From assembly GCA_964106915.2 (NCBI GenBank), contig OZ066920.1: 64,000 nt of DNA; one strand, written 5' to 3'. The DNA is from Podarcis gaigeae (taxonomy: Eukaryota). The translations under genes and the position numbers were made by a program. Below are positions 1,003 through 44,129 of this stretch, piece by piece (position 1 is the first letter of the stretch; each line of letters begins with the position of its first letter). The notes beneath the pieces are model-generated. The model did not search any database. It saw only the letters and a list, made by a program, of their open reading frames with translations, and had not been told where the DNA came from.

Positions 1003-1172
1003 TTCCTTCCACGAAAAGGAATACTACTAGTTCTTGTTCAAATAGCTTTTATCTGTCCTTTTTTATTTTTAAAGCAAAACCTGCATCATTTTGTTCCCTG
1101 AACTGTCAGTTCCATTCCAGCCTATCTGCAAGAATGGGCAGGCTGGATCGCTCCATGTGTTACTCTGCTGGA

Positions 1173-1213
1173 TTGGTCAACAGCGACACCCAGAGTCACA
1201 GTGAGAAAATGCA
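1173..1213 (-). promoter_or_regulatory. Pcdh promoter CSE / CTCF site, exon 1 (CGCT intact)
   Basis: Minus strand TGCATTTTC-N6-TGACTCTGGGTGTCGCTGTTGACCAA, ~180 bp upstream of ATG; motif recurs before every exon. Confidence 0.85.
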
Positions 1214-4200: not shown

Positions 4201-4716
4201 AAAGTGTCATACACATATTTTACATTTATTCTTATTTTGCAGGATTTATATACCACTTAACTGTGAAAATTTCTAAGCAGTTTACAAAAACATAGATAGC
4301 ACTATATAAAAAATAGTAAATAATTTACATTTGCTACGAATACAGTTGGCCTGACATTTCTTCATTTTAATAAAATAGTTTCACCACAGTTCCCCCCCTC
4401 ATTCCTCAAGCTCTGACTTAGAAGTTATTGAGAGACTGACAACTGCCTAACCTTAAAATTGCTCACAATACCAACAACATCATAGTACATTAAATCACAA
4501 AATGTGGCCAAACGGTAACTAAGAGGACAATCTTATGCTCCTCTAGGAGGGAAGTTGCAGATCTGTAGGGCTGGCAGAGAGATCCCCTGGTGCAGTTGGA
4601 GACCTTGCTTGCTTGAAATATAATATTCTTAAGCTCGCAATTACACCAAATAAATTCAATCAAATAAACATATTGGATAAGTCAGCTTACTATATAGTAC
4701 AGAAAAAAGAACTCAC

Positions 4717-7146
4717 CATGTCAGTATTCTCCCTTTCAGAACTTAAATTGCCTCCACTGACCATCAAAGAAATGTCAGAGTTGCCATTGCAAAGGAGGTT
4801 CTCTGCTATTTGGACAGTGGGCTGCAGGAATGTCAGCTCATTCCTCCTGGATTCAGATGACAGACAGACCTGGTAGGAATAAGGCAAAGTTCCGTCCTCA
4901 TAATTGGGTGGGAATGTGGCACCAGCCTTTGAGTGGGGGTCAGGAATAAAGCACTGAAGGAAAGTGGGGTTCCTTGACCTTCGAAGCTTCATCAGAATGG
5001 TCAGAATCACCGTCACCAGGAACAGAAAGGACACCAAGGTCAAGGCCAATACCAAATAAAACTGTAGATCAGACTGATATTCTGAGTCACTTGGTTGGGA
5101 GTTCATTTCCGGAAGAGCCTCCTGGAAGTTCTCAGCAAACACCAGGCTCAAAGTTGTGGTGGCTGAGAGAGGAGGATGCCCATTGTCCTTCACCAGGATG
5201 ACCAGCCTCTGCTTCACTGCATCTCTCTCAAGTAATGCTCGGACTGTTTGCACCTCTCCTGTGTGGGAGCCAATGCTGAAGAGTGAGGGCTCTGTGGCCT
5301 GCAGGAGATGGAAGGAGAGCCAGGCATTGTGTCCCGAATCAGAGTCCACGGCCACCACCTTCGTCACAAGATAACCCGACTCAGCTGACCGAGGCACCAT
5401 CTCAAATAAAGGTGAGCCCTCTGTTGATTGTGAGGGGTACAGGATCTGCGGAGCGTTATCATTTCGATCCAAAACACATACTGTCACTGTGGCACTACTA
5501 TTGAGTGGTGGAGAACCTCCATCTTGGGCCTTCACTTGAATCTGAAACTCCCTGAATTGCTCATAGTCAAAGGAGCGTTGGGCATAGATGATCCCGGTCT
5601 CAGAGTTAATGGAGACATAGGAGGAGAGAGGCAGGTCCTTGATGTTGCTGTTAAGGATGGAGTAAGTGATTCTGGCATTGCGATCCAGATCTGGGTCAGA
5701 GGCCTTGATGTGGAAAATTGAAGCTCCAGATGGGTTGTTCTCTGGAACGTAGGCAGTGTAGGAAGATTTTTCAAAGGCTGGTGGGTTATCATTGATATCT
5801 GAGATCTGTATTGATATGGTTTTGTGTGTGGAGAGTGGAGGTGTGCCTTTGTCTGTGGCTGTGATTGTAATATTATACTCGGGAGTCCTTTCTCTGTCAA
5901 GGGCACCATCTATGAGGAGCTTGAAGTAATTATCTGAAGATGAGACTATCAGGAAAGGTACAAGTTCCTTCAGGTGACAGGTGACTTCTCCGTTATCCCC
6001 AGAATCCCTGTCCTGAACTTTAATGAGAGCAATCACAGCTCCAGATGTGACATCTTCTGGAACTGGGCTGGACACGGATGTAAGGATCACATCTGGAGCA
6101 TTGTCATTCTCATCAAGAACCTCAATCTCCACTTTACAATGTGCCGCCAAGCCTCCTCCATCACTTGCCCGAATTATCATCACATAATATTGATTCTCTT
6201 CAAAATCAGCACGTTCTATAAGTGTAATTGTTCCATCTCTGGGATCCAGATGAAATTTCTGCTTGGCTGTTTTTGGGATGTCACTGAAAGTGTAAGTGAT
6301 CTCAGCATTGGACCCTTCATCACTGTCAGATGCTTTGACTTGAAGCACAGAGGTTCCTTTGGGTGCACTCTCCTTCAGGCTCACTTTATAGATTGTCTGG
6401 GTGAAAACAGGAGCATTGTCATTAGCATCAAGAACTGTTACCAATATTTTGGCTGTTCCGGTTTTTGGAGGTTCTCCACCATCCATGGCTGTAAGGACCA
6501 TGTTATGCATCTGTTCCTTTTCCCTGTCCAGTTGTTTCTGCAATATCAATTCTGCATATTTGCCGCCATCATTGCCAGCTTGAATTTCTAGTTTGAAATA
6601 TGGAGTGGAGCTCAATTGATAGTTCTGGAGGGAGTTTATTCCGATATCATCATCTTCAGCATTTCCAAGAGCAAATCGAGTTCCCGGCAGAGTAGACTCA
6701 CTCAATTTAAGCTCAACGTTTTCATTCTGGAAATTTGGGGCATTATCATTAATGTCCTGGATAAGAATATTTATGTGGAAAATATTCAAAGGATTGTGTG
6801 CCACAACTTCTAATTTGAGGACACAAATGGATGATTTCCCACAAATCTCTTCCCGGTCTATCCTCTCATTCACATACAGGTTGCCATTTTGTTCATTCAA
6901 ATCAAAGAATTGCTTTTCTGAAGAAATACCAAGCTTGCGCTTTGACAGCTCTCTGACATCCAACCCCAGATCTTTAGCAAGGTTCTCCACAAAGAAGCCC
7001 TGCTCTGCTTCCTCTGGAACTGAATACTGAACCTGTTCAGACACTACCTGGCAGCAGAACACAGACCAGAATATGAACAGAAACAGTACTTGCCTCTTGG
7101 TGATCTTCCTTGTTCTCTCTGCCTGCTTTACTTCCATCATATCCAT
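4717..7146 (-). CDS. PCDHGB: Protocadherin gamma B-like variable exon 2
   Basis: ORF 4690..7146: six EC repeats (PE, DRE, DxNDNxP), TM, gammaB-type GTLPYSY cytoplasmic motif; phase-0 donor ATG|GTGAGT at 4717/4716; last ORF codons are intron read-through. Confidence 0.93.
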
Positions 7147-7377
7147 TGTTGTTTCTGATTTCTTCCTTCTTTCAGTATAGTTTGCAAGACCCCCAGTACA
7201 CTTATGTGAGATAACAGAAATATTGTTCTTTTGAGCTGATCCTTGGGAAACAGAGAGCTTTTCTTTCTTGAGCAGCTTCTAAAATAAAAGCTTTTCCTTT
7301 CTGCTCAGCTGAAGTGTTAAGAGAGAGAGAGATTGCTCCAAGAGTCTCAGAAATGCTGAGCCATGGCTGCTCCCACG

Positions 7378-7418
7378 TTGTCCAACAGTGACACTCAGAG
7401 TCCACATGGGGAACTGTA
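7378..7418 (-). promoter_or_regulatory. CSE / CTCF site, exon 2 (CACT variant)
   Basis: TACAGTTCC-N6-GGACTCTGAGTGTCACTGTTGGACAA, ~240 bp upstream of ATG. Confidence 0.8.
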
Positions 7419-8091
7419 TTTGCCATTTCAAAAAGGGTACATAGTATATAATTTCTAATGTAGAGAACAGCTTTTAATTTAACCCTTTACAATTGTTTTC
7501 AAGTTGTGCCCCCTCATGCATTATTGATCAGACCTTATAGTTGTTCACTCCATTAAGAGCTCATTTCAGTATGCAGGCCAATGGGACCAGAATTCCAAAG
7601 TTCTTTCTTCCATGTTTAATGTGCGTTAAAAAATCTAAATAATATTAAAAAATTATCACAAGTGAATTTTTAATACATATTCCCATCAGAGGTTCACTTG
7701 TGATAATTTTAGGTTGACCCACATAGTGATTGTGTTTTCATCCAGTACATTTAAACAAAATGTATTTGTGAACAGGAAAATAGGGATGGGCCTTATACTA
7801 GTTCATATTTATTTTCCATTTAGCCCTGTATTGTTTACTTCAACAGGCATAAATTCTCCAGAAGAGGTCAGGCCTTTCTCTATTACTTATTAGAGAGGTG
7901 CTCAAAGGCAACTTCCTGTATAATATTTAATGTAGTTATATATTTTTAAGTCATGTGCTACTCTGTAATGCCTTGGGCTTGAAAAAGAAATCAATACTGC
8001 ATATGTTTTGCAAGATCTTTTTATATGATGCTCAATGTGATCACGCAGTAATCTGTCAAGAAGAGATGATATGTTTTTGCTACAATTTGAG

Positions 8092-15427: not shown

Positions 15428-16005
15428 AGTACTAACAGAGCCATCACAAAAGGTAACAAACCTGACTGCAAAATCAGATGCTCAATAAAGAGACATTGTT
15501 AGGCCTGGCCAATGTATTGATACATCGACCAGGATGGGTTTGAGAGCCAGAGCACAATGGTACCTTCACTTGGTGGTATATATGGCACCTTCACCAGATA
15601 TACTGAGGCAGTTTCACCCCAGTACCTCACATGGTTAGGCCTAATGCAGCTTATTCCTTGCTCCGCTTTTCAACATTGCAATGTATCACTATATCTCAAT
15701 GTCTGGTTGGTGATACATGGCTATGTTGAAAAGATGGTAACGCCCAACCCTAGACATTGTATGACCTCCACATAAGCTTTGTACAAGCAAATCAGGCAAT
15801 AAGACTGAAGAAAGGCATGGATTAGATAGATATCTAAGAACTGTGAGACAGTTATTAGGAATTTCTGCCGCTGTGAACCTTGAGTGCAAATAACACAAGA
15901 GGAAAGTTAAGAACATGAAACAAAGCCCATTCCAATAACCAGGTAGGCTAAAGATCAGCAGGAGCTAAGTTGCTGCTCAGATCTGAAAGGGTGGCAGAGA
16001 TGGGG

Positions 16006-16605
16006 TGTGATGGCCTGGGATTCCGATTCAGAGGATGAACCAGAGGAATCCCAGCCTGCACAGGAGTCCCCGCCTCCAGGGCCGTCTGAACTGGGGCAAG
16101 GCCTAGATGCTGAAGAGCCTGCACCTGTGGCAGAGCACCAGGAGCTGGCCCCAGGTGAAACCCTTCTGGCCCCAGAGGGGCTTGAGGACTCAGTGGCTAC
16201 AGGTGAGCCTCCTCCAGGGCCCAGTAACCCTTCGGCCTCTCCTGATCTGCAGAGGCTTAGGGCAGAGAGGCGAAGGGAACTGGTTGCTCCCAGGAGGAGT
16301 GCTCGCCTTAAGGCCAGAGGAGGCGGGGCTCCTGGGGGCCGGGACCGCCCCTGGCCTTAGAAGAGGATAAAAGCCCAGTCAGCCCGGTCCCAGGTTGCGG
16401 GAGCAACGTCGTTGTTGGCTTTGGACCTTCCTGTGTTCCTGATCCCTGCTCGGCCTCCTGTTCCTGACCATCCGGTGTTCTTGTTCCCTGCTCGGCCTCC
16501 TGTTCCAGCGTTCCTGTTCCCCGCCCGGCTCTCCGCCTCGGACCTCGCCCCTCTTCGTGTGGACTCAGACTACGCTCACGGTACCTTTCCCCCGGGTCCA
16601 GCACA
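16006..16605 (+). mobile_element. Solo LTR (600 bp, probably Gypsy-type)
   Basis: Termini TGTGATGG...CCAGCACA (7/8 inverted repeat, TG..CA); 5-bp TSD TGGGG (16001-5) / TGGTG (16606-10); abrupt GC/CpG-rich block; GC boxes (16322, 16345) then GATAAAA (16366-72) give + orientation; pyrimidine-rich tandem repeats at ~16430-16535. Confidence 0.8.
16010..16360 (+). other. Uninterrupted 116-aa ORF filling the putative U3 of the solo LTR (acidic/Pro-rich N-terminus, basic RRSARL C-terminus)
   Basis: ATG 16010, TAG 16358-60, ending just before the TATA-like box; translation unproven. Confidence 0.35.
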
Positions 16606-16889
16606 TGGTGTCAGCCAGCAACATAGTCACAGTGGCTGAAACAGAGAAAGGGGGCTGCCAGTAGTCTTATCCTAAGATGATTTATTTAAAATATGTCCTA
16701 AATTTAAATACAGTATTTATTTGAAACAATAAAGTAATTGCTTCATTATGTATGGACCCCCAAATACCATATATCTTTAAATATTTGTTATAAAAAGCAT
16801 AAACAGGCTTTCTCTAGGTTTTGTCATGCAATAATAGAACACTGAATATTGAATAAAGGAAACCAAAGTCTTGGCATTTATGTACTGAC

Positions 16890-19313
16890 CTGATGAATTG
16901 CTGCCTCCTCCGAAACTGTGTTAGAATCACCTATAACTAACAAAGGGCCTGGCTTATCAGGAGCCTGTTGTGGTGTCAGAGTATTGGTACAACTTCCGAT
17001 TGGAAAAAGGATCTGACTTTTCCGAGAGCCTGAAGGCAGTGAAACTTCGTGGCAATAAGACTGAAGAAATGCTCGAACTCCATCAATCCCCACAAACTGG
17101 GAGATGGGAGCACCATCCAAATGCACACTTCCATTGTCACACAACTGAGAATTTTTCCACCTGCGAAGTTTGAGTGCCAATAACACAAGGAGGAAGACAA
17201 GGAACAAGCAGGAGACAAAAGCCACTGCAGTCACCAAGTAGTAGGTGAGATCTGATTGTGGGTCTTCAGATACTGGGACACTGCTCAGATCAGTCAGCAT
17301 GTCAGGGATGCTGTCAGCCAAGACCACAGTGACAGTGACTGAAGCTGACATTGGAGGCTGCCCATTGTCCTTGACTAAAACCACCAGGCTTTGCTTGAGG
17401 GCATCTTTCTCCAGAAAGAACCGGGCTGTCCTGATCTCTCCCGTGTGGAGCCCCAGAGTGAAGAGCCCTGGCTCGGTGGCCTTGATCAGCTGGTAGGAGA
17501 GCCAGGCATTCTGGCCAGAGTCTGCATCCACGGCCACCACCTTAGTGACCAGGTAGCCTGGCTCAGAGGAGCGAGGGGCCAGCTCTATCCCTGTGGAGCC
17601 ATCAGTGGGAGGGGAGGGGTAAAGGATTTGGGGAGCATTGTCATTCTGGTCCAGGATGAAGAGAGTCACTGAAACGTTGGAGCTGAGTGGTGGAGAACCT
17701 CCATCCTGAGCCTTGACTAGGAACTTAATTTCCTGAAACTCTTCATAATCAAAGGAGCTCAAGGCATAAACAACCCCAGTTTCAGAGTTAATGGAGAGGT
17801 ATGAGGAGAGAGGCGATGTGCTGATTTGACTTTCAGTGATGGAATATACTATTCTGGAATTCTCTTCCCAGTCTGGATCACTTGCTTTCAGAGAAAAGAC
17901 TGAGGCACCTCTTGGATTATTTTCTAGGAGATAAGAGGTATAGGCTGACTGTAGAAAGAGTGGGGGGTTGTCATTTGTGTCTAACAGCTGCAGTGAAATA
18001 ATTGCAGAGGTTGATAATGTTGGAGTCCCATTATCAGTTGCTGTAATAGTGATATCATAGGTCGCCACTTGTTCCCTGTCAAGGGCTCTGTCTGTCACTA
18101 AAGTGTAAAAGTTGTCCATTGTTTTCTTTAGTTGGAAAGGAAGGCTATTGGGAATTGAGCACATAACCTCCCCATTGACTCCTGAATCTTTGTCTTGGAC
18201 ATTTAAAATGGCAATGACAGTTCCAGTTTGTGAATTCTCAAGGACAGAGTTGAGTTCAAAAGTTATTGTTATTTCAGGTGCATTGTCATTCAAGTCTGTA
18301 ACAAAGATCACAACCTTTGATCTGTCACTTAGACCGCCCCCATCCATGGCTTGCACCTCAAATTCATATAAGGATGATTCCTCAAAATCAAGATTCCCAA
18401 TAAGGGTGATTTCACCAGTTGTGGAATTTAACAGAAACATTTGGGAGTCCCTTTTCGTGATTTTTTGGACAGAGTATTTTATGTCTCCATTGATTCCTTC
18501 ATCCATATCAGTGGCTTGCACCGTAGAAAGTGTGGACCCCTTGGGAATATTCTCATTGACACTCACTTCATAAAGAGGTTGAGTGAAAACAGGTGCATTG
18601 TCATTTGCATCAAGAACAATGATGTGGATTTGTACTGTGCCAGACCTGATGGGATCACCTCCATCAGTAGCTGTGAGGAGTAGATCATAATCTGTTTGCT
18701 CTTCCCTGTCCAGAGGCTTTTCCAATACCAGCTCTGCATGTCTTGCCCCATTTTCTCCCGTTTGCACATCCAGAGAAAAATGGCTACTGCCTGTGAGTTG
18801 GTAGCTCTGTATAGAATTTATCCCCAGATCTGGATCCTGAGCTTCAGGAAGAGGGAAGTGGGATCCAGGTGTAGACAATTCACTGATTTTTAGTTCCCAT
18901 CCATTCAACAGAAAGAAGGGAGCATTATCATTTATATCCATGATTTCTACTTCAACAACATAAAGCTTTAAGTTGCTCTCAGCAATAACTTGAAACTTTA
19001 AGATGCACATTTCTGCCCTTCCACAGATTTTCTCTCTGTCTATTCTCTCAGAGGTTTGTAAATGGCCAGTATTGAAATTCAGTTCAAAATACTGAATCAT
19101 ACCTGTACTAGTTACAATGCGGAGTCCATGGTCCAAAAGCTGCTTCCGATCTATCCCCAGGTCCTTTGCAATATTCCCCACAAATGAGCTTTTCTGCATC
19201 TCCTCTGGAATGGAGTAGTGGATCTGTCCAGAAACTGCCTTCCAAATATTCACCGTTAGAATGCATTGTATGATTATTTCTTTGTAACTCCAGGGCCTCT
19301 GTTTTCCTTCCAT
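16890..19313 (-). CDS. PCDHGA: Protocadherin gamma A-like variable exon 4
   Basis: ORF 16878..19313; six EC repeats, [20 protein letters not shown], gammaA-type [10 protein letters not shown] motif; donor CAG|GTCAGT at 16890/16889. Confidence 0.93.
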
Positions 19314-19483
19314 TTCCTTCCACGAAAAGGAATACTACTAGTTCTTGTTCAAATAGCTTTTATCTGTCCTTTTTTATTTTTAAAGCAAAACCTGCATCAT
19401 TTTGTTCCCTGAACTGTCAGTTCCATTCCAGCCTATCTGCAAGAATGGGCAGGCTGGATCGCTCCATGTGTTACTCTGCTGGA

Positions 19484-19524
19484 TTGGTCAACAGCGACAC
19501 CCAGAGTCACAGTGACAAAATGCA
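19484..19524 (-). promoter_or_regulatory. CSE / CTCF site, exon 4 (CGCT intact)
   Basis: GACTCTGGGTGTCGCTGTTGACCAA; paralog of 1173-1213. Confidence 0.85.
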
Positions 19525-20848
19525 GGTGCTTCACACCAGAGTTGTAATCATTCTGCTTTTCATCATGACTTTTTTTAGTGCTGCTTATGCAAAGGTTATT
19601 TGATTCAACATTACAGGACTATATCGCTGCTATTCAATTACCATTATTTTTCAGGACAAACAGCTCTGTGTGCAAGGTGTACAGTAATATAGCTATGATC
19701 CATATATATGAATGGTGATGTTGTTTTTAAGGTTCAGGTGTCCTCAGATGTTGCCAACATTATAGCGGACTAACAAATTAGTGTCTGTTCCTATATTAAA
19801 AATGGGGGGAAATTGTTTGCATTTTTTAATGGGGGAAGGGGATTGCTGATTATCTTACACTTAGGTGGCCTAGGGTTTTCTCTTTTTATTCTTGTTTTTG
19901 AACTTAAAACAACAACTCCACACTGGTCACAGTAGTGTTGACGCTCTCTCTTCACAGCTTCTCAGTGGCTGCACTTCTTGGGAGTGATGGAATGCACATA
20001 GCGTTGTGCCATTCCCAAGGCATTCCAAGAAGTGCCTCCTGCAAGAAACTGGAGAGTGCGTTGTGACAATTCCCTCCGGCCACACTTCCTGCAGTGCCAT
20101 AGGTGATACATGACATGATGTAGCATGACCTCCCCAAGGCATTCCAGAAAGTGCAGCTGATGGGAAGTGGCAAAGAGAGCCTTGCACTACTGCTAGCGGT
20201 GTGCATTTAAAAAAAAATGTGAAAAAGCAAGAAAAAAGTGGCCGAGAACCTTCAACCACATCATAAAGTAAAGTAAGGTAAATGAAAACTCCCCTAAACA
20301 CTTTGGTGAAATTTCCATTCCCTCTACCTAAACAAGAGCAATTATTCTTTTTCTGGGGTGGGGGTGTTGCAGTAATTAAAAGTGGTGAGCAGTTAAAGAA
20401 AAAGCTTCATAAAATTAAGACTTAATTTGGCATTATATATATAAGCAAGTCTTCAAAGATTTGTGCCTCTCCTAAAAGCCTTTCTCTTCTGTCACAGCTC
20501 ACCTGTCCTCTGAAGATGAGGGCGTCCAGAGGAGAGCCTCAGAAGCAGATGTCAGTGCTCAGGTAGGATCATATAGGATTCCTCTAGACTCCTTTCTCTC
20601 TCTAACTTGCATCTGTTTCTCGGACACCTGTGCATTTCCATTTGGTGCCCAGGTTCTTAAATCTTCACACTGAAGTGTCTTCATTCTTTTCAGAGAAGTG
20701 GAATTGTTGTGTCTTATTACTGACAGCTGATATTCATTAACCAATTTAAGTTGTCCCTCTTCAACCAAGAAAGTAAATGTAAAGAATCAAATGTCGATTT
20801 AAAGAAAGGCCACAACTGTATGTCACATTCACCCCAGCAGTGTAGGTA

Positions 20849-20954
20849 AGAAAGGTAACCCCAGTCATGACCGACTCTGGGGTTGTGGCACTCATCTCGC
20901 TTTATTGTCCAAGGGAGCTGGCGTTTGTCCGCAGACAGCTTCCGAGTCATGTGA
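20849..20954 (-). mobile_element. 5'-truncated Sauria SINE (3' end)
   Basis: CCAGTCATGACCGACTCTGGGGTTG...CTCATCTCGCTTTATTG...ACAGCTTCCGAGTCATGTG resembles the lacertid Sauria SINE; 15-bp TSD CCAGC(A/G)GTGTAGGTA at 20834-48 and 20955-69; empty site at 2526-2540. Confidence 0.85.
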
Positions 20955-23161
20955 CCAGCGGTGTAGGTACCTTCTTCTAAACTGAAAGGAGAGTCCATCT
21001 TGCCTTGTCTGCCTCCTTTAGGCAGCTCCACTCTGACTTGGATCTTTGGTTCGGTCCTAAGGCTGATCCATTTGCTGCCCATTTGTGGACCAGAAGAGGC
21101 TGCTCTTGCTATTGGTTGTCACAGGCCATTAAACATCTGGGATCAAGACCTCCTCCCCTCAGGGCCCACGGTTCCTCCATTTCCTTAGTGAGTGTCTCCA
21201 GTAAGCTTTCTTTCATGGAACACTTCAGTTTCTTCCTTCCCTTATCCTGTAGTTGCATATTACAACTCGTTATAATCAGTTCAGTATACCACACTACCAA
21301 ATGGCACCTAATCGAAGCATCTGCCCCACCGTTAAGGCAGTGCCATGCAGGTAACAAAATCCTTCCACTACAATCAATCTGATCAAACAATTACGTACCT
21401 TCCAACATTTCTCCAATGAAAATAGGGACATGCCTCCTGGCCACCTAAAAGACTTACCAGCTAATCCTAGGTAGATGGACTCTCAGACGGGACTGGGAGG
21501 AAGTCGTTCCAACAGCCTACTTCAGCCAGATCCAAAGAAGGCTTCCCCACAAGACAGAGCTTGGGCCTAGTCTAAACCATCTCATCTTCATTTACATGTG
21601 GGCAAAGATGCCCTTCCCTTCAGCAAGAGAGGGAATTCAATGGGACTTGCTCCTAGGTAAGTGTGAATAATCTTTCATTTATTTAGGGTGCTTCTCAAAG
21701 CTGCATTCCAAAAACAAACTGAAGTTGGCTGAGCATTTTCTTGAGCTTTAAGTTTGACTTCCTCAGAGTGGCTGTTGGGAGGCCCAAACTCCAAACAGTG
21801 TTAACGGCGGATCTCAAGCATGAAGTTAAAAACATATAATCATCTAGTTATTATAAGTTATTATGGGGGGGAAGGGGTTGGTACTCACCGTGAAGTTGTT
21901 ACAATAAGTGCCACACTTTTAACATTTGACAATAAAAAGTGCCGGCACTGCATACACTTGAGTATCCACAGAAAAAAAAGCACTGTCTTTATATATAAAA
22001 AATTATCATCAGTGGGCATGCATCTTGGCTACAATTCTAAGAGCAATTTTAAGTGTTTCCAAAGGCACATCCAACAGAAAGTTTGACCTTTTTTTAGCTG
22101 AACAGTCATTCGAGTCCATGCCTATCCCACCTCTTGCTCATGCCATATCATAAACTGTTTATGATACTCCTATCAGTTTTTTTTAAAAAAGAAAGCTTGT
22201 CATGTGAGTGACGGGGTGCATCAGAAGCACAAACCCAAGCCTCCTTTGGACGGGCATAACTACCCATGCTCTTACCAAATAAATTAAAGTATATGGAGTA
22301 GACATAGTGCATTAGTACCATTCACAATCCACAGAACAAAAATTTTAATTATACATATCTAAAGGAAGACAACAAAAACTGTCAAGGCTTGCGTGAATAG
22401 CACTGGTTAGATTCATTCCGTCTTACACTGCAGAATCAATTCACAAGCATACAAATGTGTCTACTTCAGAAGTGTGTTAAATTCTGTCCTCCAGTCTGAT
22501 GGAACAATGAAAGTTAATTGCCCATCTTTCCTATTTTAAATTAGGTTTTGTTTTCAACTTTACAAGCATATTGCTTATGTAAAATGCAATCTTTTTATTT
22601 GATGTTGGCATCTGTCATAGCTTTTGTTTGTAAAGTGTCATACACATATTTTACTTTTTTTTTTTGCAGGATTTATACACCACTTAACTGTGAAAATTTC
22701 TAAGCAGTTTACAAAAACATAGATAGCACTATATAAAAAATAGTAAATCATTTACATTTGCTTCAAATACAGTTCGCCTGAAATTTCTTCATTTTAATAA
22801 AATAGTTTCACCACAGTTCCCCCCTCATTCCTCAAGCTCTGACTTAGAAGTTATTGAGAGACTGACAACTGCCTAACCTTAAAACTGCTCACAATACCAA
22901 CAGCATCATAGTACATTAAATCACAGCATGTGGCCAAATGGTAACTAAGAGGACAATCTTATGCTCCTCTAGGAGGGAAGTTGCGGATCTGTAGGATTCT
23001 GTGAAACTTTCAGGGCTGGCAGAGAGATCCCCTGGTGCAGTTGGAGACCTTGCTGGCTTGAAATATAATATTCTTAAACTCGCAATAACAGCAAATAAAT
23101 TCAATCAAATAAACATATTGGATAAGTCAGCTTACTATATAGTGCAGAAAAAGGAACTCAC

Positions 23162-25591
23162 CATGTCAGTATTCTCCTTTTCAGAACTTAAATTACCTCC
23201 ACTGACCATCAAAGAAATGTCAGAGCTGCCATTGCAAAGGATGTTCTCTGCTATTTGGACAGTGGGCTGCAAGAAAGTCAATTCATTCCTCCTGGATTCA
23301 GAGGACAGACAGACCTGGTAGGAATAAGGCAAAGTTCCGTCCTCATAATTGGGTGGGAATATGGCACCAGCCTTTGAATGGGGGTCAGGAACAAAGCACT
23401 GAAGGAAAGTGGGGTTCCTTGACCTTCGAAGCTTCATCAGAATGGTCAGAATCACTGTCACCAGGAACAGAAAGGACACCAAGGTCAAGGCCAATACCAA
23501 ATAAAACTGTAGATCAGACTGATACTCTGAGTCATTTGGTTGGGAGTTCATTTCTGGAAGAGCCTCCTGGAAGTTCTCAGCAAACACCAGGCTCAACGTT
23601 GTGGTGGCTGAGAGAGGAGGATGCCCATTGTCCTTCACCAGGATGACCAGCCTCTGCTTCACTGCATCTCTCTCAAGTAATGCTCGGACTGTTTGCACCT
23701 CTCCTGTGTGGGAGCCAATGCTGAAGAGTGAGGGCTCTGTGGCCTGCAGGAGATGGAAGGAGAGCCAGGCATTGTGTCCCGAATCAGAGTCCACGGCCAC
23801 CACCTTCGTCACCAGATAACCCGACTCAGCTGACCGAGGCACCATCTCAAAGAAAGGTGAGCCCTCTGTTGATTGTGAGGGGTACAGGATCTGCGGAGCG
23901 TTATCATTTCGATCCAAAACACACACTGTCACTGTGGCACTGCTATTGAGTGGTGGAGAACCTCCATCTTGGGCCTTCACTTGAATCTGAAACTCCCTGA
24001 ATTGCTCATAGTCAAAGGAGCGTTGGGCATAGATGATCCCAGTCTCAGAGTTAATGGAGACATAGGAGGAGAGAGGCAGGTCCTTGATGTTGCTGTTAAG
24101 GATGGAGTAAGTGATTCTGGCATTGCGATCCAGATCTGGGTCAGAGGCCTTGACGTGGAAAATTGAAGCTCCAGATGCCTTGTTTTCTGGAACGTAGGCA
24201 GTGTAGGAAGATTTTTCAAAGGCTGGTGGGTTATCATTGATATCTGAGATCTGTATTGATATAGTTTTGTGTGTGGAGAGTGGAGGTGTGCCTTTGTCTG
24301 TGGCTGTGATTGTAATATTATACTCGGGAGTCCTTTCTCTGTCAAGAGCACCATCTATGAGGAGCTTGAAGTAATTATCTGAAGATGAGACTATCAGGAA
24401 AGGTACAAGTTCCTTCAGGTGACAGGTGACTTCTCCGTTATCCCCAGAATCCCTGTCCTGAACTTTAATGAGAGCAATCACAGCTCCAGATGTGACATCT
24501 TCTGGAACTGGGCTGGACACGGAAGTAAGGATCACATCTGGAGCATTGTCATTCTCATCAAGAACCTCAACCTCCACTTTGCAATGTGCCACCAAACCTC
24601 CTCCATCACTTGCCTGAATTATCATCACATAATACTGACTCTCTTCAAAATCAACACTTTCTATGAGTGCAATGGTTCCATCTCTGGGATCCAGATGAAA
24701 TTTCTGCTCAGCTGTTTTTGAGATGTCACTGAATGTATAAGTGATCTCAGCATTGGACCCTTCATCACTGTCAGATGCTTTGACTTGAAGCACAGAGGTT
24801 CCTTTGGGTGCACTCTCCTTCAGGCTCACTTTATAGATTGTCTGGGTGAAAACAGGGGCATTGTCATTAATATCAATAACTGTTACCAATATTTTGGCTG
24901 TTCCGGTTTTTGGAGGTTCTCCGCCATCCATTGCTGTAAGCACCATGTGGTGCATCTGTTCCTTTTCCCTGTCCAGTTGTTTCTGCAATATTAATTCTGC
25001 ATATTTTCCGCCATCATTGCCAGCTTGAATTTCTAGTTTGAAATATGGAGTTGAGCTCAACTGATACTTCTGGAGGGAGTTTGTTCCGATATCATCATCT
25101 TCAGCATTTCCAAGAGCAAATCGAGTTCCTGGCAGAGTAGACTCACTCAATTTAAGCTCAACATTTTCATTCCGGAAATATGGGGAATTGTCATTAATGT
25201 CTTGGATAAAAATATTTATGTGGAAAATATTCAAAGGATTGTGTGCCACAACTTCCAATTTGAGGACACAAGTGGATGATTTACCACAAATCTCTTCCCG
25301 GTCTATCCTCTCATTCACATATAGGTTGCCATTTTGTTCATTCAAATCAAAGAATTGCTTTTCTGAAGAAATACCAAGCTTGCGCTTTGACAGCTCTCTG
25401 ACATCCAACCCCAGATCTTTAACAAGGTTCCCCACAAAGGAGCCCTGCTCTGCTTCCTCTGGAACTGAATACTGAACCTTCTCAGACGCTACCTGGCAGC
25501 AGAACACAGACCAGAATATGAACAGAAACAGTACTTGCCTCTTGGTGATCTCCCTTGTTCTCTCTGCCTGCTTTATTTCCATCACATCCAT
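23162..25591 (-). CDS. PCDHGB: Protocadherin gamma B-like variable exon 5 (paralog of exon 2)
   Basis: ORF 23135..25591; GTLPYSY; donor ATG|GTGAGT at 23162/23161. Confidence 0.93.
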
Positions 25592-25820
25592 TGCATTTCC
25601 TGATTTCTTCCTTCTTTCAGTATAGTTTGCAAGACCCCCAGTACACTTATGTGAGATAACAGAAATATTGTTCTTTTGAGCTGATTCTTGGGAAACGGAG
25701 AGCTTTCCTTTCTTGAGCAGCTTTTAAAATAAAAGCTTTTCCTTTCTGCTCCGCTGATGTGTTAAGAGAGAGAGAGAGCTCCAAGAGTCTCAGAAATGCT
25801 GAGCCATGGCTGCTCCCATG

Positions 25821-25861
25821 TTGTCCAACAGTGACACTCTGAGTCCACATGGGGAACTGTA
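25821..25861 (-). promoter_or_regulatory. CSE / CTCF site, exon 5 (CACT variant)
   Basis: GGACTCAGAGTGTCACTGTTGGACAA. Confidence 0.8.
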
Positions 25862-27732
25862 TTTGCCATTTCAATAATGGTACATAGTATATAATTTCTA
25901 ATGTAGAGAACTGCTTTTAATTTACCCTTTACCATTGTTTTCAAGTTGTACCCCCCCCCCCCATGGATTGTTGATCAGACCTTATAGTTATTCACTCCAT
26001 TAAGAACTCTTTTCAGTATGCAGGTCAATGAGACCAGAGTTCCAAATTTCTTTCTTCCATGTTTAATGTGCATTAAAACAATCTAAATAATATTAGGAAA
26101 TTATCACAAGTGAATTTTTAATATGTATTCCCGTCAGAGGTTCAGCTTGTGTAATAATTTTAGGTTGACCCACACAGTGATGTGTGCATTTTATTAATGT
26201 GATCAAGAGAATTTGTCACTTGTATTTACAATAAGGAAAATCAACTTTTTAAAGCACTATTTTTGTCTGGTGTTCAAATACTGTAATCCCTAAATAATTC
26301 CCACTTTCTCTTAAACATCAAACAATTTTGTGGGAATCCAAGCATCCTCCCAGCATACTTTGCATTGTGCAATTCACACATTAGTAGAACTACAGGATAG
26401 TCCTTCAAGGACATTGCCAGAAATGGTCACCAAAACAACTCCCCCAAATTTCAGCACGTTACCATTCATTGTTTCCTTACAGGAACAAAAAAACCCCACA
26501 TGCCTCATAAACTGCATCAATTTTTGCCATTGTAGGGTGTTTACAACTCCAGCAATTATAGCATTTTTTAAAATAGAAAAATGCCAGCAAAATTTCACCA
26601 AAGAGCTCTTGAATCAAACCAGCTTACAGTTACATTACAAAGGAATAAATAAACTTGCAGTCATTTCCATTGATGTACCTATTGTAGGAGTGTGGAACTA
26701 CCTAGAAGAACACACTGTTGGCTGAAGCTGTTTTCATTCATTTTACAGAGAGAAGGCAACACATGACACCTTATCTGGGGTTCAAAATTCTAACTCTACC
26801 TTACACTAGAAATCTCAAAAGAGTAGAAAATGCAAATCCCCCCAAACCATTTGTTTGCTGCTGCTGTAGTTCAATAGCGGGTGAAGGTTGCAAGTTACAA
26901 AGGAGCATTATGCAACCAATCTTACAATACAATTGCTTGTAAATATATTTCCAGAGTCCCCTCACCATTGAATCTCCTCATTTTATCATACTAAAATATA
27001 CAAACAGCCAAAATATCTCAGCCAATAAAAGAGTTAAGTAAATTCATTATAACTTTTCTTTTAAAAAAAAAAAGTCTTGTGGCAATGAGAATCTCAGTAT
27101 CAGCTTATTGGTGGGCAGTTGGGTATGTAGTGGAAAGAAGTTATTGGTGGAAAGATGGGAATGAGAACTTGTCATAGGATACTAGGCCCTAGTTTTCATT
27201 GAGGCGGCATGACTAAAACTTATCAGTATCAAGGCAGGTGAGGGCTCACATTTATATACGTATTGATACAGGTTTTTTAAACCACCCACTATTTGGAAGT
27301 GTAATTAAAAAATGAAATAAAAGCCAAATGCAACATTCAAAGCTAAAACAATTTAGAATCAATCTCACAGGAACTCACCTACTGCACATGAAAATAGGAT
27401 GGCCCTAGCCTTCTCCTATACATCTCCTATACACGATAGTTTCACTATGTAGTGAACTATGTTTTTTTTATAGATGTGCACAAGATTCTGTGAGCCTCCA
27501 CCAGCAGTCCAAAGTAAGAGACAAAGACAGATCATCTGATGCATCAATATGAAGATTTGTTGAAAGAAGTTACTTCACAGAAGGATCACGTATAAAGTAA
27601 TAACTTTAGCTGAAAGTAATAGAAAGAAGACTGACATAGTTCTGAATATAATGAAAAAGCAGAGGCTGATGGGAAATATATTATAATATTAAGAAAACAA
27701 AATATTATGTTAAGCTAATATTGTTTGCTCAC

Positions 27733-30135
27733 CTGGACTACGATTAATCCTTCATTGTTCAAGTTTAAATCTTCACCAGGTAGGATAGGATCCTTTGCCT
27801 CACAAGCTTCTTTATTGCTCAGAGTATTGGAATAATTTGCCTTTCTGGAGTCTGTAGTGAGAGAGACCTCCTGGCAGTAGGAGTGCAGAAATGCTCGGAC
27901 TCCGTCAATCCCTACAAACTGTGAGATAGGAGCACCACTGAAATTCACACTCCCCGAATCAAGCAGCTGAGAATTTCTCCACCTGTGCAACTTGATGGCC
28001 AATAACACAAGGAGGAAGATGAGGAACAAGCAGGAGACAAAAGCCACTGCAAGGACCAGGTAGAAGGTGAGGTCAGATGGAGGCTCTACAGGAGCTGAGA
28101 TGCTGCTCAGGTCTGAGAGGATTGCAGGGATGGTGTCAGCCAGCACCACAGTTAGAGTGGCTGAAGCAGAGAGAGGTGGCTGCCCATTGTCCTTGACTAA
28201 AACCACCAGGCTTTGCTTGAGGGCATCTTTCTCCAGGAAGAAGCGGGCCGTCCTGATCTCTCCCGTGTGGAGCCCAAGAGTGAAGAGCCCTGGCTCGGTG
28301 GCCTTGATCAGCTGGTAGGAGAGCCAGGCATTCTGGCCAGAGTCCGCATCCACGGCCACCACCTTAGTGACCAGGTAGCCTGGCTCAGAGGAGCGAGGGG
28401 CCAGCTCTATCCCTGTGGAGCCATCAGTGGGAGGGGAGGGGTACAGGATTTGGGGAGCATTGTCATTCTGGTCCAGGATGAAGAGAGTCACTGAGACGTT
28501 AGAGCTGAGTGGTGGAGAACCTCCATCCTGAGCCTTTACACGGAACCGAATGTCTCGAAACTCTTCATAATCAAAGGAGGTCAGAGCATATATAACCCCC
28601 GTCTCAGAGTTAATGGACAGGTAGGAGGAGAGGCGGGAGTCACTTCTTTGGTCATCAGTGATGGAATATGTTATTCTGGCATTTTCTTCCCAGTCAAGAT
28701 CATTTGCTCTTAAGGAAGAGACCATGGCTCCTCTTTGGTTATTCTCAACAAAATAGAAAGTATAGTCTGTTTTTTCAAAGAGGGGTGGGTTGTCATTTGT
28801 GTCTAAAACATGAAGTGTGATAACTGTGACTGTAGAAAGAGGGGGGACTCCATGGTCAGTAACAGTGACAGTAATATTGAAGACTGACACCTGTTCCCTG
28901 TCAAGGGCACCATCAGTCACCAAACTGTAAAAGTTATCCATGGACTTCTTTAGCTGGAAAGGGAGGTTGCTAGGGATTGAACATGTGATTTCCCCATTGA
29001 TTCCAGAATCTCGGTCTTGGACATTTAAAATGGCAATTACCGTTTGGGATGGTGAACTTTCAAGTATAGTGTTGGTGGCAAAGGTAACTGATAATTCAGG
29101 TGCGTTGTCATTCAGATCCGTAACAGATAACACAACTTTTGATCTGTCACTCAGGCCTCCTCCATCTTTGGCTTGTATCTCAAATGCATATAAAGATGAT
29201 TCCTCATAATCAAGATTCCCAATAAGGATGATTTCCCCTGTTGTGGAATTTAACAGAAACATTTGGGTGTCTTGCTTTGTAATTTCTTGGAAAGAGTATT
29301 TAATGTCTCCATTGATTCCTTCATCCATATCAGTTGCTCTCAATGTCAAAAGTATGGACCACTTGGAGATATTCTCATTGATACTCACTTCATAGAGAGG
29401 TTGGCTGAAAACTGGTGCATTGTCATTTGCATCAATAACAACAATGTGGATTTGTAATGTGCCAGACCTGATAGGATCACCTCCATCAGTAGCTGTGAGA
29501 AGCAAATCGTAAGCTGATTGTTCCTCTCTGTCCAGTGAGTTTTCCAACACAAGTTCAACAAGTCTGGCACCATTTTCTTCTGTTTGCACATGCAAAGCAA
29601 AATGGCTACTGCCTGTGAGTTGATAGCTCTGCACTGAATTTATCCCCCAATCTGGATCTTGAGCTTTGGGTAGAGGGATCTGGAATGCAGGCATAGATGC
29701 CTCACTGATTTTCAGCTCCTGTTCCCATAGAGGGAAGTGGGGAGCATTATCATTTATATCCGTAATTTCCACTTCAATTCCATAAAGCTTCAATTTGCTT
29801 TCAACAAGAACCTGAAACTTTAACATACATTTCTCTGCCTCTCTGCAGATTTTCTCTCTATCTATTCTCTCAGATATCTGCAAATGGCCATTGTTGGCAT
29901 TCAAAGAAAAGTACTGAATCATACCTACAGGAGAAACAATGCGGAGTCCATGGTTTGGGAGCTGCTTGCCATCCACTCCCAGGTCCTTTGCAATATTCCC
30001 CACAGAAGAGCCTTTGTGCATCTCTTCTGGAATGGAGTAGTGGATCTGCCCAGAAACTGTCTTCCAAGAAAACATCATGAAAAGGCAATGGAAGATTCCC
30101 TTTCTGCACTTCCACAGCCTCTGAATTCCTTCCAT
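27733..30135 (-). CDS. PCDHGA: Protocadherin gamma A-like variable exon 6
   Basis: ORF 27715..30135; [10 protein letters not shown]; donor CAG|GTGAGC at 27733/27732. Confidence 0.93.
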
Positions 30136-30320
30136 TCTTGCAGCAGGTTAAAGACCCTTAGATTCTGGTTCAAAATATGCTGTATCCAATTTTTTCTAAG
30201 GAAAATGCACTTCCATTTCTTCTTTGCACTGACAAGCTGCTTGTTCCTTCAGATTTTTTGTGTTTGTGTTTAACGGAAAGGCAACTTCAGTTGGGTAGGA
30301 TTTCACATTTCTGCTCCATT

Positions 30321-30361
30321 CTGGTCAACAGTGACACCCAGAGGATCAAGCCCAGACTGCA
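30321..30361 (-). promoter_or_regulatory. CSE / CTCF site, exon 6 (CACT variant)
   Basis: TGCAGTCTG-N6-ATCCTCTGGGTGTCACTGTTGACCAG; good match to CTCF upstream module + core. Confidence 0.82.
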
Positions 30362-30823
30362 AAAACTTCAGATATAGCTAGGATAACTATTCTTTTCCCT
30401 TAGAATTTACCCACTAAGGATAAATAAGAGTGATGACTTTTGTTGCTGTAATCAAATTGAAAGGGAGCAGGAAAGACAAGTGTGTTTAGGGTTCCTGCCC
30501 TGCCCCATTACTGGAATTTCTGGAATAAATGTTATGGATCTTTCTCAGCAATGTTTTTGGCTGGCTTTTCTAAGGGAATATTCAATAGATTTTTTTCTTG
30601 ATGGAGAAACAACACTAGTAAACCACCAGGACATCCTTGTGACCTCTGGCACTTCACTCCTCTCAGCTCCTATTTTTTCATTCACATATCTAGGCTGTTC
30701 ATGTTCAAACTGAATTTTTATTTTTAGGTACGTGTTATATAAGCCCTACTTGGGCATACACTGTCCGTACATGAGCAAACACCTGAGGAGAAATAGTCCT
30801 TTCCAGTCCAGCATTTCATCTGT

Positions 30824-30993
30824 ACAAGGAGAAGGGGACGACAGAGGACGAGATGCTTGGACAGTGTTCTCGAAGCGACCAGCATGAGTCTGAGCAAACT
30901 GCGGGAGGCAGTGGAAGACAGGAGTGCCTGGCGTGCTCTGGTCCATGGGATCACGAAGAGTCAGACACGACTAAACGACTAAACAACAACAAC
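30824..30993 (+). mobile_element. BovB (RTE) LINE 3' end, rearranged copy
   Basis: GGAGAAGGGGACGACAGAGGACGAGATG...GGTCCATGGGATCACGAAGAGTCAGACACGACT followed by (AAC)n tail. Confidence 0.85.
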
Positions 30994-33607
30994 ACGTAAG
31001 CCCTATTTGGGCATACACTGTCCATACATGAGCAAACACCTGAGGAGAAATATGGAGTGCTTCTTAGTTCTTTCCTGTCCAGCATTTCATCTGTACACAA
31101 TCTAGATCCCTCCATGAATTTGAGGACCAAGGTCTGAGGTGGGGAGCTTACTCTACTTGTAGGGGCCCCACACATGATATGGAACTTTGCACCATCATAT
31201 TTTCTTTGCTTACACTTGAGGAGATTGTTCAAATAAGGCTGTACTGGGTAGGAGATGCACATCATGAATACTCCAGTTCAAATCAAACTTCAACCATGAG
31301 TTCATTAGTTGTCCTTGGGCAAGACTCCCTTCCTCCTATCTCTGGTTGAATTCACACAGCAGTTTCATCCGTTTCCCTGATGTTTCCCTAACTATTAATT
31401 TCTGCATTATATTTGAGTTTTCACATGGCATGAAATCCACTTCATTTCCATGTTATTTAATTGCAGGAAAAAATCCATTTGCTGCTCCGTTAAACCGGAA
31501 AATAGCAGGAGTAAAGTGATGAAATTTGGGGCTGTATACATGGGGGAATGAATACATGCACAGCTGTGGGTGGAATAGTGGCAATGTTATCCAATGATGT
31601 TCATTGTTGCGTCACACCATGCACACTGGTGTGAATGAAATTTAGTGGAACACGATACATTGCTCATATAATGATATGCTGATATATTGGTAAAAAATAT
31701 ACACATAACACAACTGGTACTGCAGCGTGAAAGGATCATTGGAAAACAGATTAGAGGCACTAGTGTTCTAGTCAGGAAAACTAATGCAATACTTGCCACA
31801 TCTAAATGCTGATCTATCTTTCTGGGTTATTGAAGAGTTACAAGGGAATGTATATCAACCATTTTCTACACTAAAGTGCTCTATAAACACCAAGTATGAC
31901 TGTACAGTGCAAAGAAGCCCATGTCCTCCTTAATGTATTGATCACATTGTGCCTAGAAGAAAATAAAGCCAAGACGAATGCTATTAAAGCCAATTATTAT
32001 TACTACACCACACCACATTCCAGAGATAAAAAGAAGCAGGGAGAAATTGGTGACACATGCAGTGGGGTGGAGCTGTGGAGCCACCCTCCAACACTAGTGT
32101 TGTTGCTGGGGCTTACCTGGTCAGGGCTGGGCTGACACAACTGTTTGGTTGGGGCTGTGCTGGTGCACCAGCAGCAGTGCTAAATGTTCCCACAGTTAAA
32201 AGCACATGACTCCAGCCTCACTCTGCCCCATCCAGGTAGGCAACAGTACGTAGGGGTTGGGGGGGTGAATTCACCAGCTGCCCACCACCATGCATGTCAC
32301 TACTGCAGGTGGGTAACTTTCAATGGCAGCGTATGAGCTCATGTATGACAATTGGTTGTCAAGCTCAGAACAAGCATGATTAAAAACTAGCATGTGGTGA
32401 CCTGTTAAACCTCCAGTCATCTTTCTTGGAGATCTTGATGCTCTTCTGCTTCTTGTTCTACAAAATCAGCAGGACTACTAAAACTGCTATACTGAATTTG
32501 CTGAATGCTTTCCCCCAAAAGACAGAAAATCAAGCATCCGATACACTATGCAATAACTATGCAATGCCATAAAAGTTTCTTTCAAAATTGGTCTTCATCT
32601 TTCACTACAGAATATGCACTGGCAACAAACTTTTTGACACATTAGGAGCAATCCAGCATTAATGTATATGAAGCAGCAGATACAGGGGTGTGCAGCTGTA
32701 TGTCCTGGCCAGATTGCCTTTCCATGGGAAAGCATTCCCAGCCAAAGAGGTGAGAGAGGGCATCTAACATTGTTATGACTCAATAGTCATTTGTCACCTA
32801 TGTTACTACATTATTAAAGCATGACTGGAGATATTATAGGTAGAAATACTAGCCACATGCACACTCAGCTACATACATACTGTTGACCACAACTGTTCCA
32901 ACTGGTCATAATTTCTAATCATAAATTGCAAATGCTCTTAGCTGTTTTGACTGTTATGCAAAGGGGAAAAGAGATTTTTGGGTTCATGATGCAGACATAT
33001 TTGAGTCAGCATATAGGTCAATACAGGGACCCCTGTTTTTCCCTATTGCTCATTGCCTGTGTTTTGTCTTTCTAGTATATGGTTTTTGGAGATGGGGAAT
33101 TAATGCATTTTATATATTTATTTATTTAAAATAATTATATAGTACCAGTCCCACACTCAAAGAGTATGTAGGTTGTGTATAATATTGATTTAAGACCATA
33201 TAAGCACCAGTTCAATGTAATAATATGCATAATAAAGTACAGTATATAATACTGTTGTCAGCAACTTAGTGGAGTTAAACACCGATGGCCAGCAAATACT
33301 TGGTCACATAGATACATCTTTAAGTTGATGAAAACACTGCACCGTACATTACTATTGAATTCAAAAGTGCAGACTGTTCCACCACAGAGAATGCCATCCT
33401 TATGATTTCCAGAACATGTACTGATGCAGGTAAGGAGACCACCAGGAATGCCTCCACTGAAGATCTTGGTGAATAGATGAATTGATATGAGAACAATCAT
33501 TATCTTGAACAATCTTGTGCTAATTTGTTTTAGAAAGGATGAGGTAAAATGTTGGAGAATTTAGGAGTGCTTCCTTAATATTTTTGTAACATATTGGGAC
33601 AGTCTCC

Positions 33608-43902: not shown

Positions 43903-44088
43903 CCTTGCAGCAGGTTAAAGGCTCTTAAATTCTGGTTCAAAAGATCCTGTATCCAACTCTATTCTAAGGAAAATGTACTTCCATTTCTTCTTTACACTGA
44001 CAAGCAGCTTGTTCCTTCAGATATTTTGTGTTTGTGTTTAACGGAAAGGCAACTTCAGTTGGGCAGGATTTCACATTTCTGCTTGGTT

Positions 44089-44129
44089 CTGGTCAACAGT
44101 GACACCCAGAGGATCAAGCCCAGACTGCA
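44089..44129 (-). promoter_or_regulatory. CSE / CTCF site, exon 8 (CACT variant)
   Basis: Same as the exon 6 CSE. Confidence 0.82.

What the first reader, a model, noticed from the sequence alone, without database searches (positions are those of the whole stretch)
16006..19524. Solo LTR positioned as an antisense promoter firing through one variable exon towards its CpG-bearing CSE
Seen: a GC/CpG-rich solo LTR ends 285 bp from exon 4's splice donor; its GC boxes and GATAAAA point towards higher coordinates, antisense through exon 4 and across its promoter CSE (19484-19524), one of only three CSEs here that keep the CGCT CpG. Established: in the mammalian Pcdh-alpha cluster, antisense lncRNA transcription across a variable promoter triggers demethylation, CTCF binding and promoter choice; this is not the described mechanism for gamma. 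Inference: the insertion could have given one gamma isoform its own antisense choice trigger (or instead silence it by TE methylation), biasing the neuronal barcode.
Basis: partly seen in the sequence, partly recalled or inferred. Interest (0 to 1): 0.72.

Follow-up and report, generated by a model that had tools for sequence, protein, structure and literature searches.

The report
Young solo LTR in protocadherin intron
A recently inserted 600-base remnant of a common jumping gene sits just behind one protocadherin-gamma exon, facing backwards into it, but it is likely an ordinary passenger that is probably silenced or cut short before it could switch that exon's promoter on.

Summary
The anatomy is real. 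A 600-bp solo LTR (16006-16605) ends 285 bp from the splice donor of a Pcdh-gamma-A exon. Full-length relatives are Ty3/gypsy chromoviruses. Their primer-binding site pairs with LTR bases 16397-16406 (Tf1/sushi-type self-priming), which fixes the orientation as antisense and predicts a start near 16397. The twin exon lacks the LTR.

The regulatory reading is weak. The insertion is young (4 differences from its closest copy), absent at this site in two related organisms, and possibly not fixed in this one. Antisense is the usual orientation of surviving intronic LTRs, and in this tandem array any such copy points at a CSE. 'One of three CGCT CSEs' is a window effect: 16 of 39 gamma-A/B promoters keep it. 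Two AATAAA signals lie before the exon. No exonic CTCF site was found, the start is 3.1 kb from the CSE (about 0.7 kb in alpha), the promoters are CpG-poor, and the family decays at CpGs as if methylated. No RNA of a carrier could be tested. Verdict: an ordinary young insertion, with about a 5% chance of being an antisense choice trigger.

The parts
16006..16605 (+). Solo LTR, 600 bp, TG..CA, of a self-priming Ty3/gypsy chromovirus (Tf1/sushi-like)
16001..16005 (.). Left target-site duplication TGGGG (one mismatch to the right copy)
   Evidence: twin empty site TGGTG
16606..16610 (.). Right target-site duplication TGGTG
16010..16360 (+). 116-codon ORF filling U3; in 5 of 12 full-length elements the pol frame runs into it; it lies upstream of the predicted start and so would not be in an LTR-initiated RNA
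   Evidence: 116 codons in 29 of 29 copies and in the window
16322..16350 (.). Two GC-box-like hexamers on opposite strands
16366..16372 (+). GATAAAA TATA-like box, 31 nt before the predicted start
   Evidence: intact in 27 of 29 copies
16397..16406 (+). Predicted start of R and transcription start: 10 nt complementary to the element's primer-binding site (self-primer)
   Evidence: 10-nt match in 10 of 12 elements; 9 of 2000 shuffles; MFE fold pairs them
16728..16733 (+). Host AATAAA on the antisense strand, 123 nt past the LTR; also in the twin
16852..16857 (+). Second host AATAAA on the antisense strand, before the exon; also in the twin
16884..16889 (-). Exon 4 splice donor GTCAGT
16890..19313 (-). 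Pcdh-gamma-A variable exon ('exon 4'), 808 codons, intact
   Evidence: gamma constant exons lie downstream
19490..19508 (-). CSE (predicted CTCF site) with CGCT box; CpG at 19495-19496

Best explanation
This is a young solo LTR of a Ty3/gypsy chromovirus, predicted to self-prime, that sits antisense in the intron behind one Pcdh-gamma-A exon and is likely a neutral or nearly neutral passenger. SHOWN: one copy of an 18-kb tandem duplicate carries the LTR with its 5-bp target duplication, and the twin has the empty site; the LTR's promoter faces the exon. INFERRED: a full element inserted after the duplication and recombined down to one LTR. It was tolerated because it has no AATAAA on the Pcdh sense strand (the usual reason antisense LTRs survive in introns). 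It is probably methylated like the rest of its family. Any RNA starting near 16397 would likely end at one of the two AATAAA signals 0.33 and 0.46 kb on, before the exon and 3.1 kb short of the CSE, so promoter choice would be unaffected.
For: Family and type: 40 scored copies at 97-100% identity, 2142 first-look candidates; 69 exact matches to the 26-nt LTR end; gag-PR-RT-RH-IN-chromodomain and no env domain found. Youth: 4 differences in 600 bp from the closest copy with all 26 CpG kept, against 96.5% identity of the twin exons. Lineage restriction: empty-site joints in organisms B and E, and in a second sample of organism A, where an exon-4-type left flank joins an empty site. [quoted passage not shown] Geometry: 39 exons in 245 kb, each with a CSE, 16 with CGCT. 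Terminators: AATAAA at 16728 and 16852 with no GT[AG]AG on + before 17245. Methylation footprint: transitions at CpG positions run 5.2 times the rate of all other differences between 5' and 3' LTRs of 12 elements; 10.4 times without the two elements whose TSDs do not match (by hand). No CSE-like or CTCF-consensus site in the LTR or exon 4.
Against: The LTR is intact: TATA-like box, start and all 26 CpG are unchanged and the part around the start has CpG o/e 0.68, so it could work. Related LTRs are found in sense-strand RNA in a related organism. The LTR has no AATAAA of its own, so read-through into the flank is expected, and hexamers alone do not prove efficient termination. It lies 285 bp from a donor, inside the 1-2 kb zone where LTRs are depleted in mammals and more often have effects; only about 8% of the array's intron length is that close to a donor (39 x 300 bp of 146 kb). 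Germ-line CpG decay says nothing direct about neurons. It is the only copy of the family in 534 kb of cluster. No RNA or methylation data of a carrier were available.
Confidence: 0.8

Rival explanations
1. One reading: the LTR is active in some neurons, its RNA runs antisense through exon 4 and across the CSE, demethylates the CGCT CpG, lets CTCF bind and raises the choice of this gamma isoform, as the exonic antisense promoter does in mammalian Pcdh-alpha.
For: Orientation and start fit; LTR intact, with no poly(A) hexamer of its own; CSE4 keeps the CpG; methylation of the CGCT CpG blocks CTCF at mammalian Pcdh promoters (review PMC7811963); forced antisense transcription activates alpha promoters (10.1101/360206); related LTRs occur in RNA of a relative.
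Against: Two AATAAA before the exon; 3.1 kb from the CSE against about 700 bp for the alpha eCBS; in alpha only the promoter next to the antisense start is activated although the RNA crosses several; no eCBS-like site; all 39 promoters are CpG-poor (o/e 0.05-0.39) and 23 of 39 CSEs have no CpG in the box, so a methylation gate at this CpG cannot be the general rule here; family CpG decay; insertion young and not shared with two relatives.
Confidence: 0.05
2. The LTR mildly lowers exon-4 output: heterochromatin or methylation spreads from it, short antisense transcription interferes, or it disturbs the nearby weak donor. It would then be a slightly deleterious insertion not yet purged.
For: Within 285 bp of a donor that departs from the GTGAG of its paralogues; inside the zone where LTRs are depleted in mammals; family methylation footprint; an LTR-free, partly twin-like allele in another sample of the same organism.
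Against: Antisense orientation is the less harmful one; no AATAAA on the sense strand of the LTR; the promoter is 3 kb away; exon 4 is intact with pN/pS 0.18 against its twin; one of 39 isoforms, so any effect is small.
Confidence: 0.13
3. The LTR's placement is an assembly error in a duplicated region.
For: One mismatch in the target duplication; three of four runs show only an empty-site joint among the listed records.
Against: The target matches the twin's empty site; run X1 has a contig across the right junction (16590-16726, 0 differences, depth 27.9 like its neighbours, though only 16 bases lie in the LTR); 2 of 17 other solo copies also have a one-mismatch TSD; the LTR sequence differs from all 29 copies examined.
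Confidence: 0.02

Closest known systems
Tf1/sushi group of Ty3/gypsy chromoviruses (V-clade: sushi-ichi, Amn; names as listed in PMC6317226)
   Same: Order gag-PR-RT-RH-IN with C-terminal Tf2-type SH3 and chromodomain, no env found; 5-bp TSD; PPT before the 3' LTR; PBS that pairs with the start of R, as described for self-priming Tf1/sushi elements (PMC6317226 passages).
   Different: [quoted passage not shown] No phylogeny against named families was run.
Intronic antisense solitary LTRs of mammals
   Same: Solo LTR with TSD, antisense to the host gene, young and possibly polymorphic (PMC1794541 abstract; PMC3088655 passages).
   Different: A gypsy element rather than an ERV, in a non-mammalian genome, inside a tandem multi-promoter array.
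Pcdh-alpha eCBS antisense lncRNA promoter (bioRxiv 10.1101/360206)
   Same: A promoter downstream of a CSE pointing back across it; CSE with a CpG in the CGCT box.
   Different: The alpha promoter is exonic, about 700 bp from the CSE, beside a second CTCF site, and present in every alternate exon. Here it is intronic, TE-derived, 3.1 kb away, with no CTCF site found, behind two poly(A) hexamers, present at 1 of 39 exons, and of unknown activity.

Membership tests
Solo LTR | TG..CA ends flanked by a 4-6 bp target duplication, no internal sequence | tested here: met
   TSD 4 of 5 bases; empty site in twin
Solo LTR | Same sequence forms both direct repeats of full-length elements | tested here: met
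   12 of 13 fetched stretches hold two LTRs, elements 4.9-5.7 kb
Ty3/gypsy chromovirus | Order PR-RT-RH-IN with C-terminal chromodomain, no env | tested here: met
   one element (L033) scanned with Pfam
Tf1/sushi group | PBS complementary to the 5' end of the element's own RNA (self-priming) | tested here: met
   10-nt match in 10 of 12 elements (7 and 8 nt in the other two); 9 of 2000 shuffles. Complementarity shown; priming itself not assayed; no tRNA-end comparison run
Tf1/sushi group | RT/RH/IN phylogeny places it with sushi/Tf1 | not tested
   no reference sequences of named families were fetched
Pcdh-gamma-A variable exon | Large cadherin exon with own CSE and donor, upstream of gamma constant exons; closest to gamma-A | tested here: met
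   top PDB hit Pcdh gamma A9, E 5e-192; three constant-exon motifs 160-180 kb left of the window; motifs recalled
Pcdh-alpha-type antisense choice promoter | Antisense orientation across the cognate CSE | tested here: met
Pcdh-alpha-type antisense choice promoter | Promoter inside the exon, about 700 bp from the CSE | tested here: not met
   intronic, 3.1 kb away
Pcdh-alpha-type antisense choice promoter | Second CTCF site (eCBS) at the antisense promoter | tested here: not met
   best CSE-matrix score -7.2 in the LTR and 1.7 in exon 4 against 32.7 for CSE4; best match to a recalled CTCF consensus has 3 of 14 mismatches. Motif scan only
Pcdh-alpha-type antisense choice promoter | Long antisense RNA that reaches the CSE in neurons | not testable with these tools
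   no RNA run of the carrier organism listed
Pcdh-alpha-type antisense choice promoter | Demethylation and CTCF gain at the CSE on transcription | not testable with these tools
   needs methylation and ChIP data

The most novel reading that the evidence does not exclude
A recent retrotransposon promoter has given one protocadherin-gamma isoform an alpha-style antisense trigger, and because the insertion segregates in the species it is a natural experiment showing that antisense transcription can bias gamma promoter choice and so the neuronal barcode.
Probability: 0.05. Interest if true: 0.7.

Novelty: new member of a known kind. Interest (0 to 1): 0.2.

Why it matters
As it most likely stands it matters little: one more young solo LTR in the tolerated orientation. 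If it does drive RNA across the CSE it would bear on an open question, since the paper that described the alpha mechanism states that beta and gamma exons lack the antisense promoter and that their choice mechanism is unknown. Carriers and non-carriers would then give an allele-matched test, although targeted activation in mammalian cells would ask the same question more directly. A by-product may matter more: 23 of 39 gamma-A/B CSEs in this genome have no CpG in the CGCT box and all promoters are CpG-poor, which suggests that choice here does not rest on methylation of that CpG.

Tried and rejected
RNA test: no RNA holder listed for the carrier organism. Four runs of related organism E were laid (three raw-read RNA runs, one contig run of guessed RNA). 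E shows the empty site, tissue is unknown and only 85-177 reads were laid per raw run. In the two stranded runs all exon reads were sense and none lay on 16662-16915; this says nothing about the insertion. No clustered read starts were found, and U3 was covered as deeply as R-U5, so the start at 16397 was not confirmed by RNA.

Polymorphism: the LTR-free contig in run X3 is a mosaic (exon-4-type left, twin-type right) and the tool drops some records, so it is suggestive only; conversion of either copy or a contig chimera cannot be told apart. 4 of 14 DNA-type runs were laid.

Selection on the U3 frame: singletons 8 synonymous / 20 non-synonymous, shared variants 3 / 6, on 92 / 256 sites; no sign of selection, inconclusive.

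C12 argument: two papers (passages) report that methylation at CTCF motif position C2 matters more than at C12.

The dN/dS printed and the exon comparisons used a mis-cut exon 1 and were discarded; one search is the valid one. One regex hit (-59919) was spurious; the matrix scan replaced that count. L089 gave only one long LTR hit and was dropped from the element counts; L031 and L032 share flanks and are not independent. An ERV identity was rejected (chromodomain, no env found). Earlier findings: three look-ups, nothing. No supplements were read.

Full report
SETTING. The window holds 11 large cadherin exons on the minus strand. I read 534 kb of the contig around it. It is a clustered protocadherin locus: 39 intact, interspersed gamma-A/B-type exons in 245 kb, with gamma constant-exon motifs (recalled, short) 160-180 kb to the left of the window. 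Exon 4 (16890-19313) is closest to Pcdh gamma A9 among solved structures. The layout resembles the anole cluster (PMC2764143, passages); that the animal is a squamate reptile is my inference and comes from no call.

THE ELEMENT. A search of the genome with 15950-16660 returned 40 scored copies at 97-100% identity with the same 600-bp limits, 16006-16605, out of 2142 first-look candidates. A 26-base end pattern has 69 exact matches. Of 29 other copies examined, 17 are solo LTRs (13 with an exact 5-bp TSD, 2 scored as 4-bp, 2 with one mismatch), 7 are followed by a common primer-binding sequence and 5 are preceded by a common purine tract. The window copy has a TSD with one mismatch, and the exon-1 twin, 18.3 kb away, has the uninterrupted target. 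It is therefore a solo LTR, present in one of two duplicates.

FAMILY AND ORIENTATION. Twelve of 13 fetched stretches hold two-LTR elements of 4.9-5.7 kb. In the one scanned with Pfam the order is gag, protease, RT, RNase H, integrase, SH3, chromodomain, with no env domain found, on the same strand as the window's + strand, with the purine tract before the right-hand LTR. The primer-binding site begins 2 nt after the left LTR and pairs with LTR positions 392-401 (window 16397-16406): 10 nt in 10 of 12 elements, 7 and 8 nt in the other two; 9 of 2000 shuffles do as well; the predicted leader folds with these two ends paired. Self-priming of this kind is described for the Tf1/sushi group (PMC6317226, passages). 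Since the self-primer is the RNA's 5' end (established for Tf1; recalled), the start is predicted at about 16397, 31 nt after the first base of GATAAAA.

AGE AND SPREAD. The window LTR differs from its closest copy at 4 of 600 positions, none a CpG transition, and keeps 26 CpG. The twin exons are 96.5% identical with pS 0.093, so the insertion is likely younger than the duplication. Of four DNA-type contig runs laid, X1 (organism A, possibly the source) has a contig over the right junction. X4 (organism B) and X7 (organism E) show a joint skipping 605 bases, and X4's contig has the exon-4-type right flank with no differences, so the site is empty there. X3, another sample of organism A, has a 443-base LTR-free contig whose left part lacks nearly all of the 13 twin-diagnostic differences while its right part carries exactly the twin's. 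That suggests an LTR-free allele in the same organism, but filtered records and contig chimerism leave it unproven.

IS THE ARRANGEMENT MORE THAN CHANCE? Not clearly. Exons lie about 6.3 kb apart, each with its CSE upstream, so any antisense intronic LTR points through an exon at a CSE. Antisense is the expected orientation of survivors: PMC1794541 (abstract) and PMC3088655 (passages and Table 2: 30% sense among full-length mouse LTR elements within 2 kb of exons, 77% sense among mutagenic ones). CGCT is kept by 3 of 11 CSEs in the window but by 16 of 39 in the array. The array's 146 kb of introns would hold about 0.2 copies of the broad family (2142 candidates in 1515 Mb, a rough figure that includes fragments) or 0.007 of the strict subfamily (69, a lower bound); one is seen in 534 kb. 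Closeness to the donor is the least common feature, about 8% of intron length.

COULD IT REACH AND CHANGE THE CSE? For: the LTR is intact and has no AATAAA on either strand, and related LTRs occur in RNA of organism E mainly in the LTR's sense direction (for example first-mate depth 28 against 0.87 in bin 16408-16534 of run X23, with Pcdh exon reads showing the opposite polarity). Those reads come from other loci and showed no start site. Against: two AATAAA on the + strand at 16728 and 16852, both also in the twin, with no GT[AG]AG before them; CpG transitions between paired LTRs at 50 of 655 CpG positions against 96 differences at 6488 others, ratio 5.2, the footprint of germ-line methylation (defining CpG from either copy inflates it somewhat); no CSE-like or CTCF-consensus site in the LTR or exon; 3.1 kb to the CSE. 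In mammalian alpha the antisense promoter is exonic, tied to a second CTCF site about 700 bp from the CSE (PMC7811963, passages), only the promoter next to it is activated, and beta and gamma lack it (10.1101/360206, passages). Here all 39 promoters have CpG o/e 0.05-0.39 and 23 of 39 CSEs have no CpG in the box, so the methylation gate that the model needs is doubtful in this animal. Loss of the CGCT box is also reported for frog and zebrafish alpha promoters (PMC4978886, passages).

THE TWIN AS A CONTROL. Exons 1 and 4 share 779 of 808 residues, pN/pS 0.18, and near-identical promoters with the same CSE core. But exon 1 ends CAG|GCGAGT and exon 4 CAG|GTCAGT, while four paralogues have GTGAG. 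A difference in mRNA between them could come from splicing. LTR-bearing against LTR-free exon-4 alleles is the right comparison.

LITERATURE. I found no report of a TE-derived antisense promoter in a Pcdh cluster: the search for clustered protocadherin + transposable element + LTR + antisense promoter gave one review on HUSH and the exosome (listing only); (listings) showed none. The library lacks most subscription papers. PMC3601003, PMC10325916 and PMC6868874 were seen as passages. No supplements were read.

VERDICT. Observation largely confirmed and sharpened; regulatory interpretation possible but unlikely. Passenger insertion 0.80, mild negative effect 0.13, antisense choice trigger 0.05, assembly error 0.02. 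New member of a known kind; interest 0.2.

Noticed in passing
gamma-A/B array, window-relative -121,346 to 123,332 (L034-L046, L076-L080 and window): Of 39 CSEs, 16 have CGCT, 19 CACT, 4 CAGT and none TGCT; all promoters are CpG-poor (o/e 0.05-0.39). Every loss keeps the C on the motif strand. PMC10325916 notes that an opposite-strand T mimics a binding-stimulating methyl group, so CACT sites may be methylation-proof CTCF sites (inference; paralogues are not independent events).
   Followed up: partly
L034 about 8595 (exon 1 donor) and window 16884-16889: Both twins have non-consensus donors: exon 1 GC-type (GCGAGT), exon 4 GTCAGT; four paralogues have GTGAG.
   Followed up: partly
window 16010-16360; L031-L033, L081-L090: U3 holds a 116-codon acidic, proline-rich frame with a basic end, open in 29 of 29 copies; in 5 of 12 full-length elements the pol frame continues into it, so U3 may encode an integrase tail beyond the chromodomain. 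No sign of selection in a small test.
   Followed up: partly
L005, L013, L017, L030 flanks; window 20861-20960: 4 of 29 LTR copies are inserted within or beside a SINE-like repeat (recalled as Sauria-SINE-like) whose matching 100-bp part covers only about 0.4% of the 534-kb cluster; possible target preference, genome-wide density not measured.
   Followed up: partly
L031 and L032 (C17, about 185 kb apart, opposite strands); L087 and L088 (C32): Pairs of full-length elements with identical flanks, i.e. copies by segmental duplication; L087 and L088 have non-matching TSDs and 5-6% divergent LTRs, suggesting recombination or tandem arrays.
   Followed up: no
contig C32 of G000: 13 of 69 exact LTR-end matches lie on this 29.5-Mb contig (2% of the genome), an enrichment as expected of a repeat-rich, possibly sex-limited chromosome (inference).
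   Followed up: no
window 1-7734 against 18312-26186, and 26183-33000 against 39907-46819: Recent tandem duplications of multi-exon blocks at 92-97% identity, with a mosaic haplotype in run X3 that hints at conversion between twins.
   Followed up: partly
window-relative -39,044, 128,459 and 207,959: Three long non-cadherin ORFs, LINE-like by eye, all on the Pcdh sense strand.
   Followed up: no
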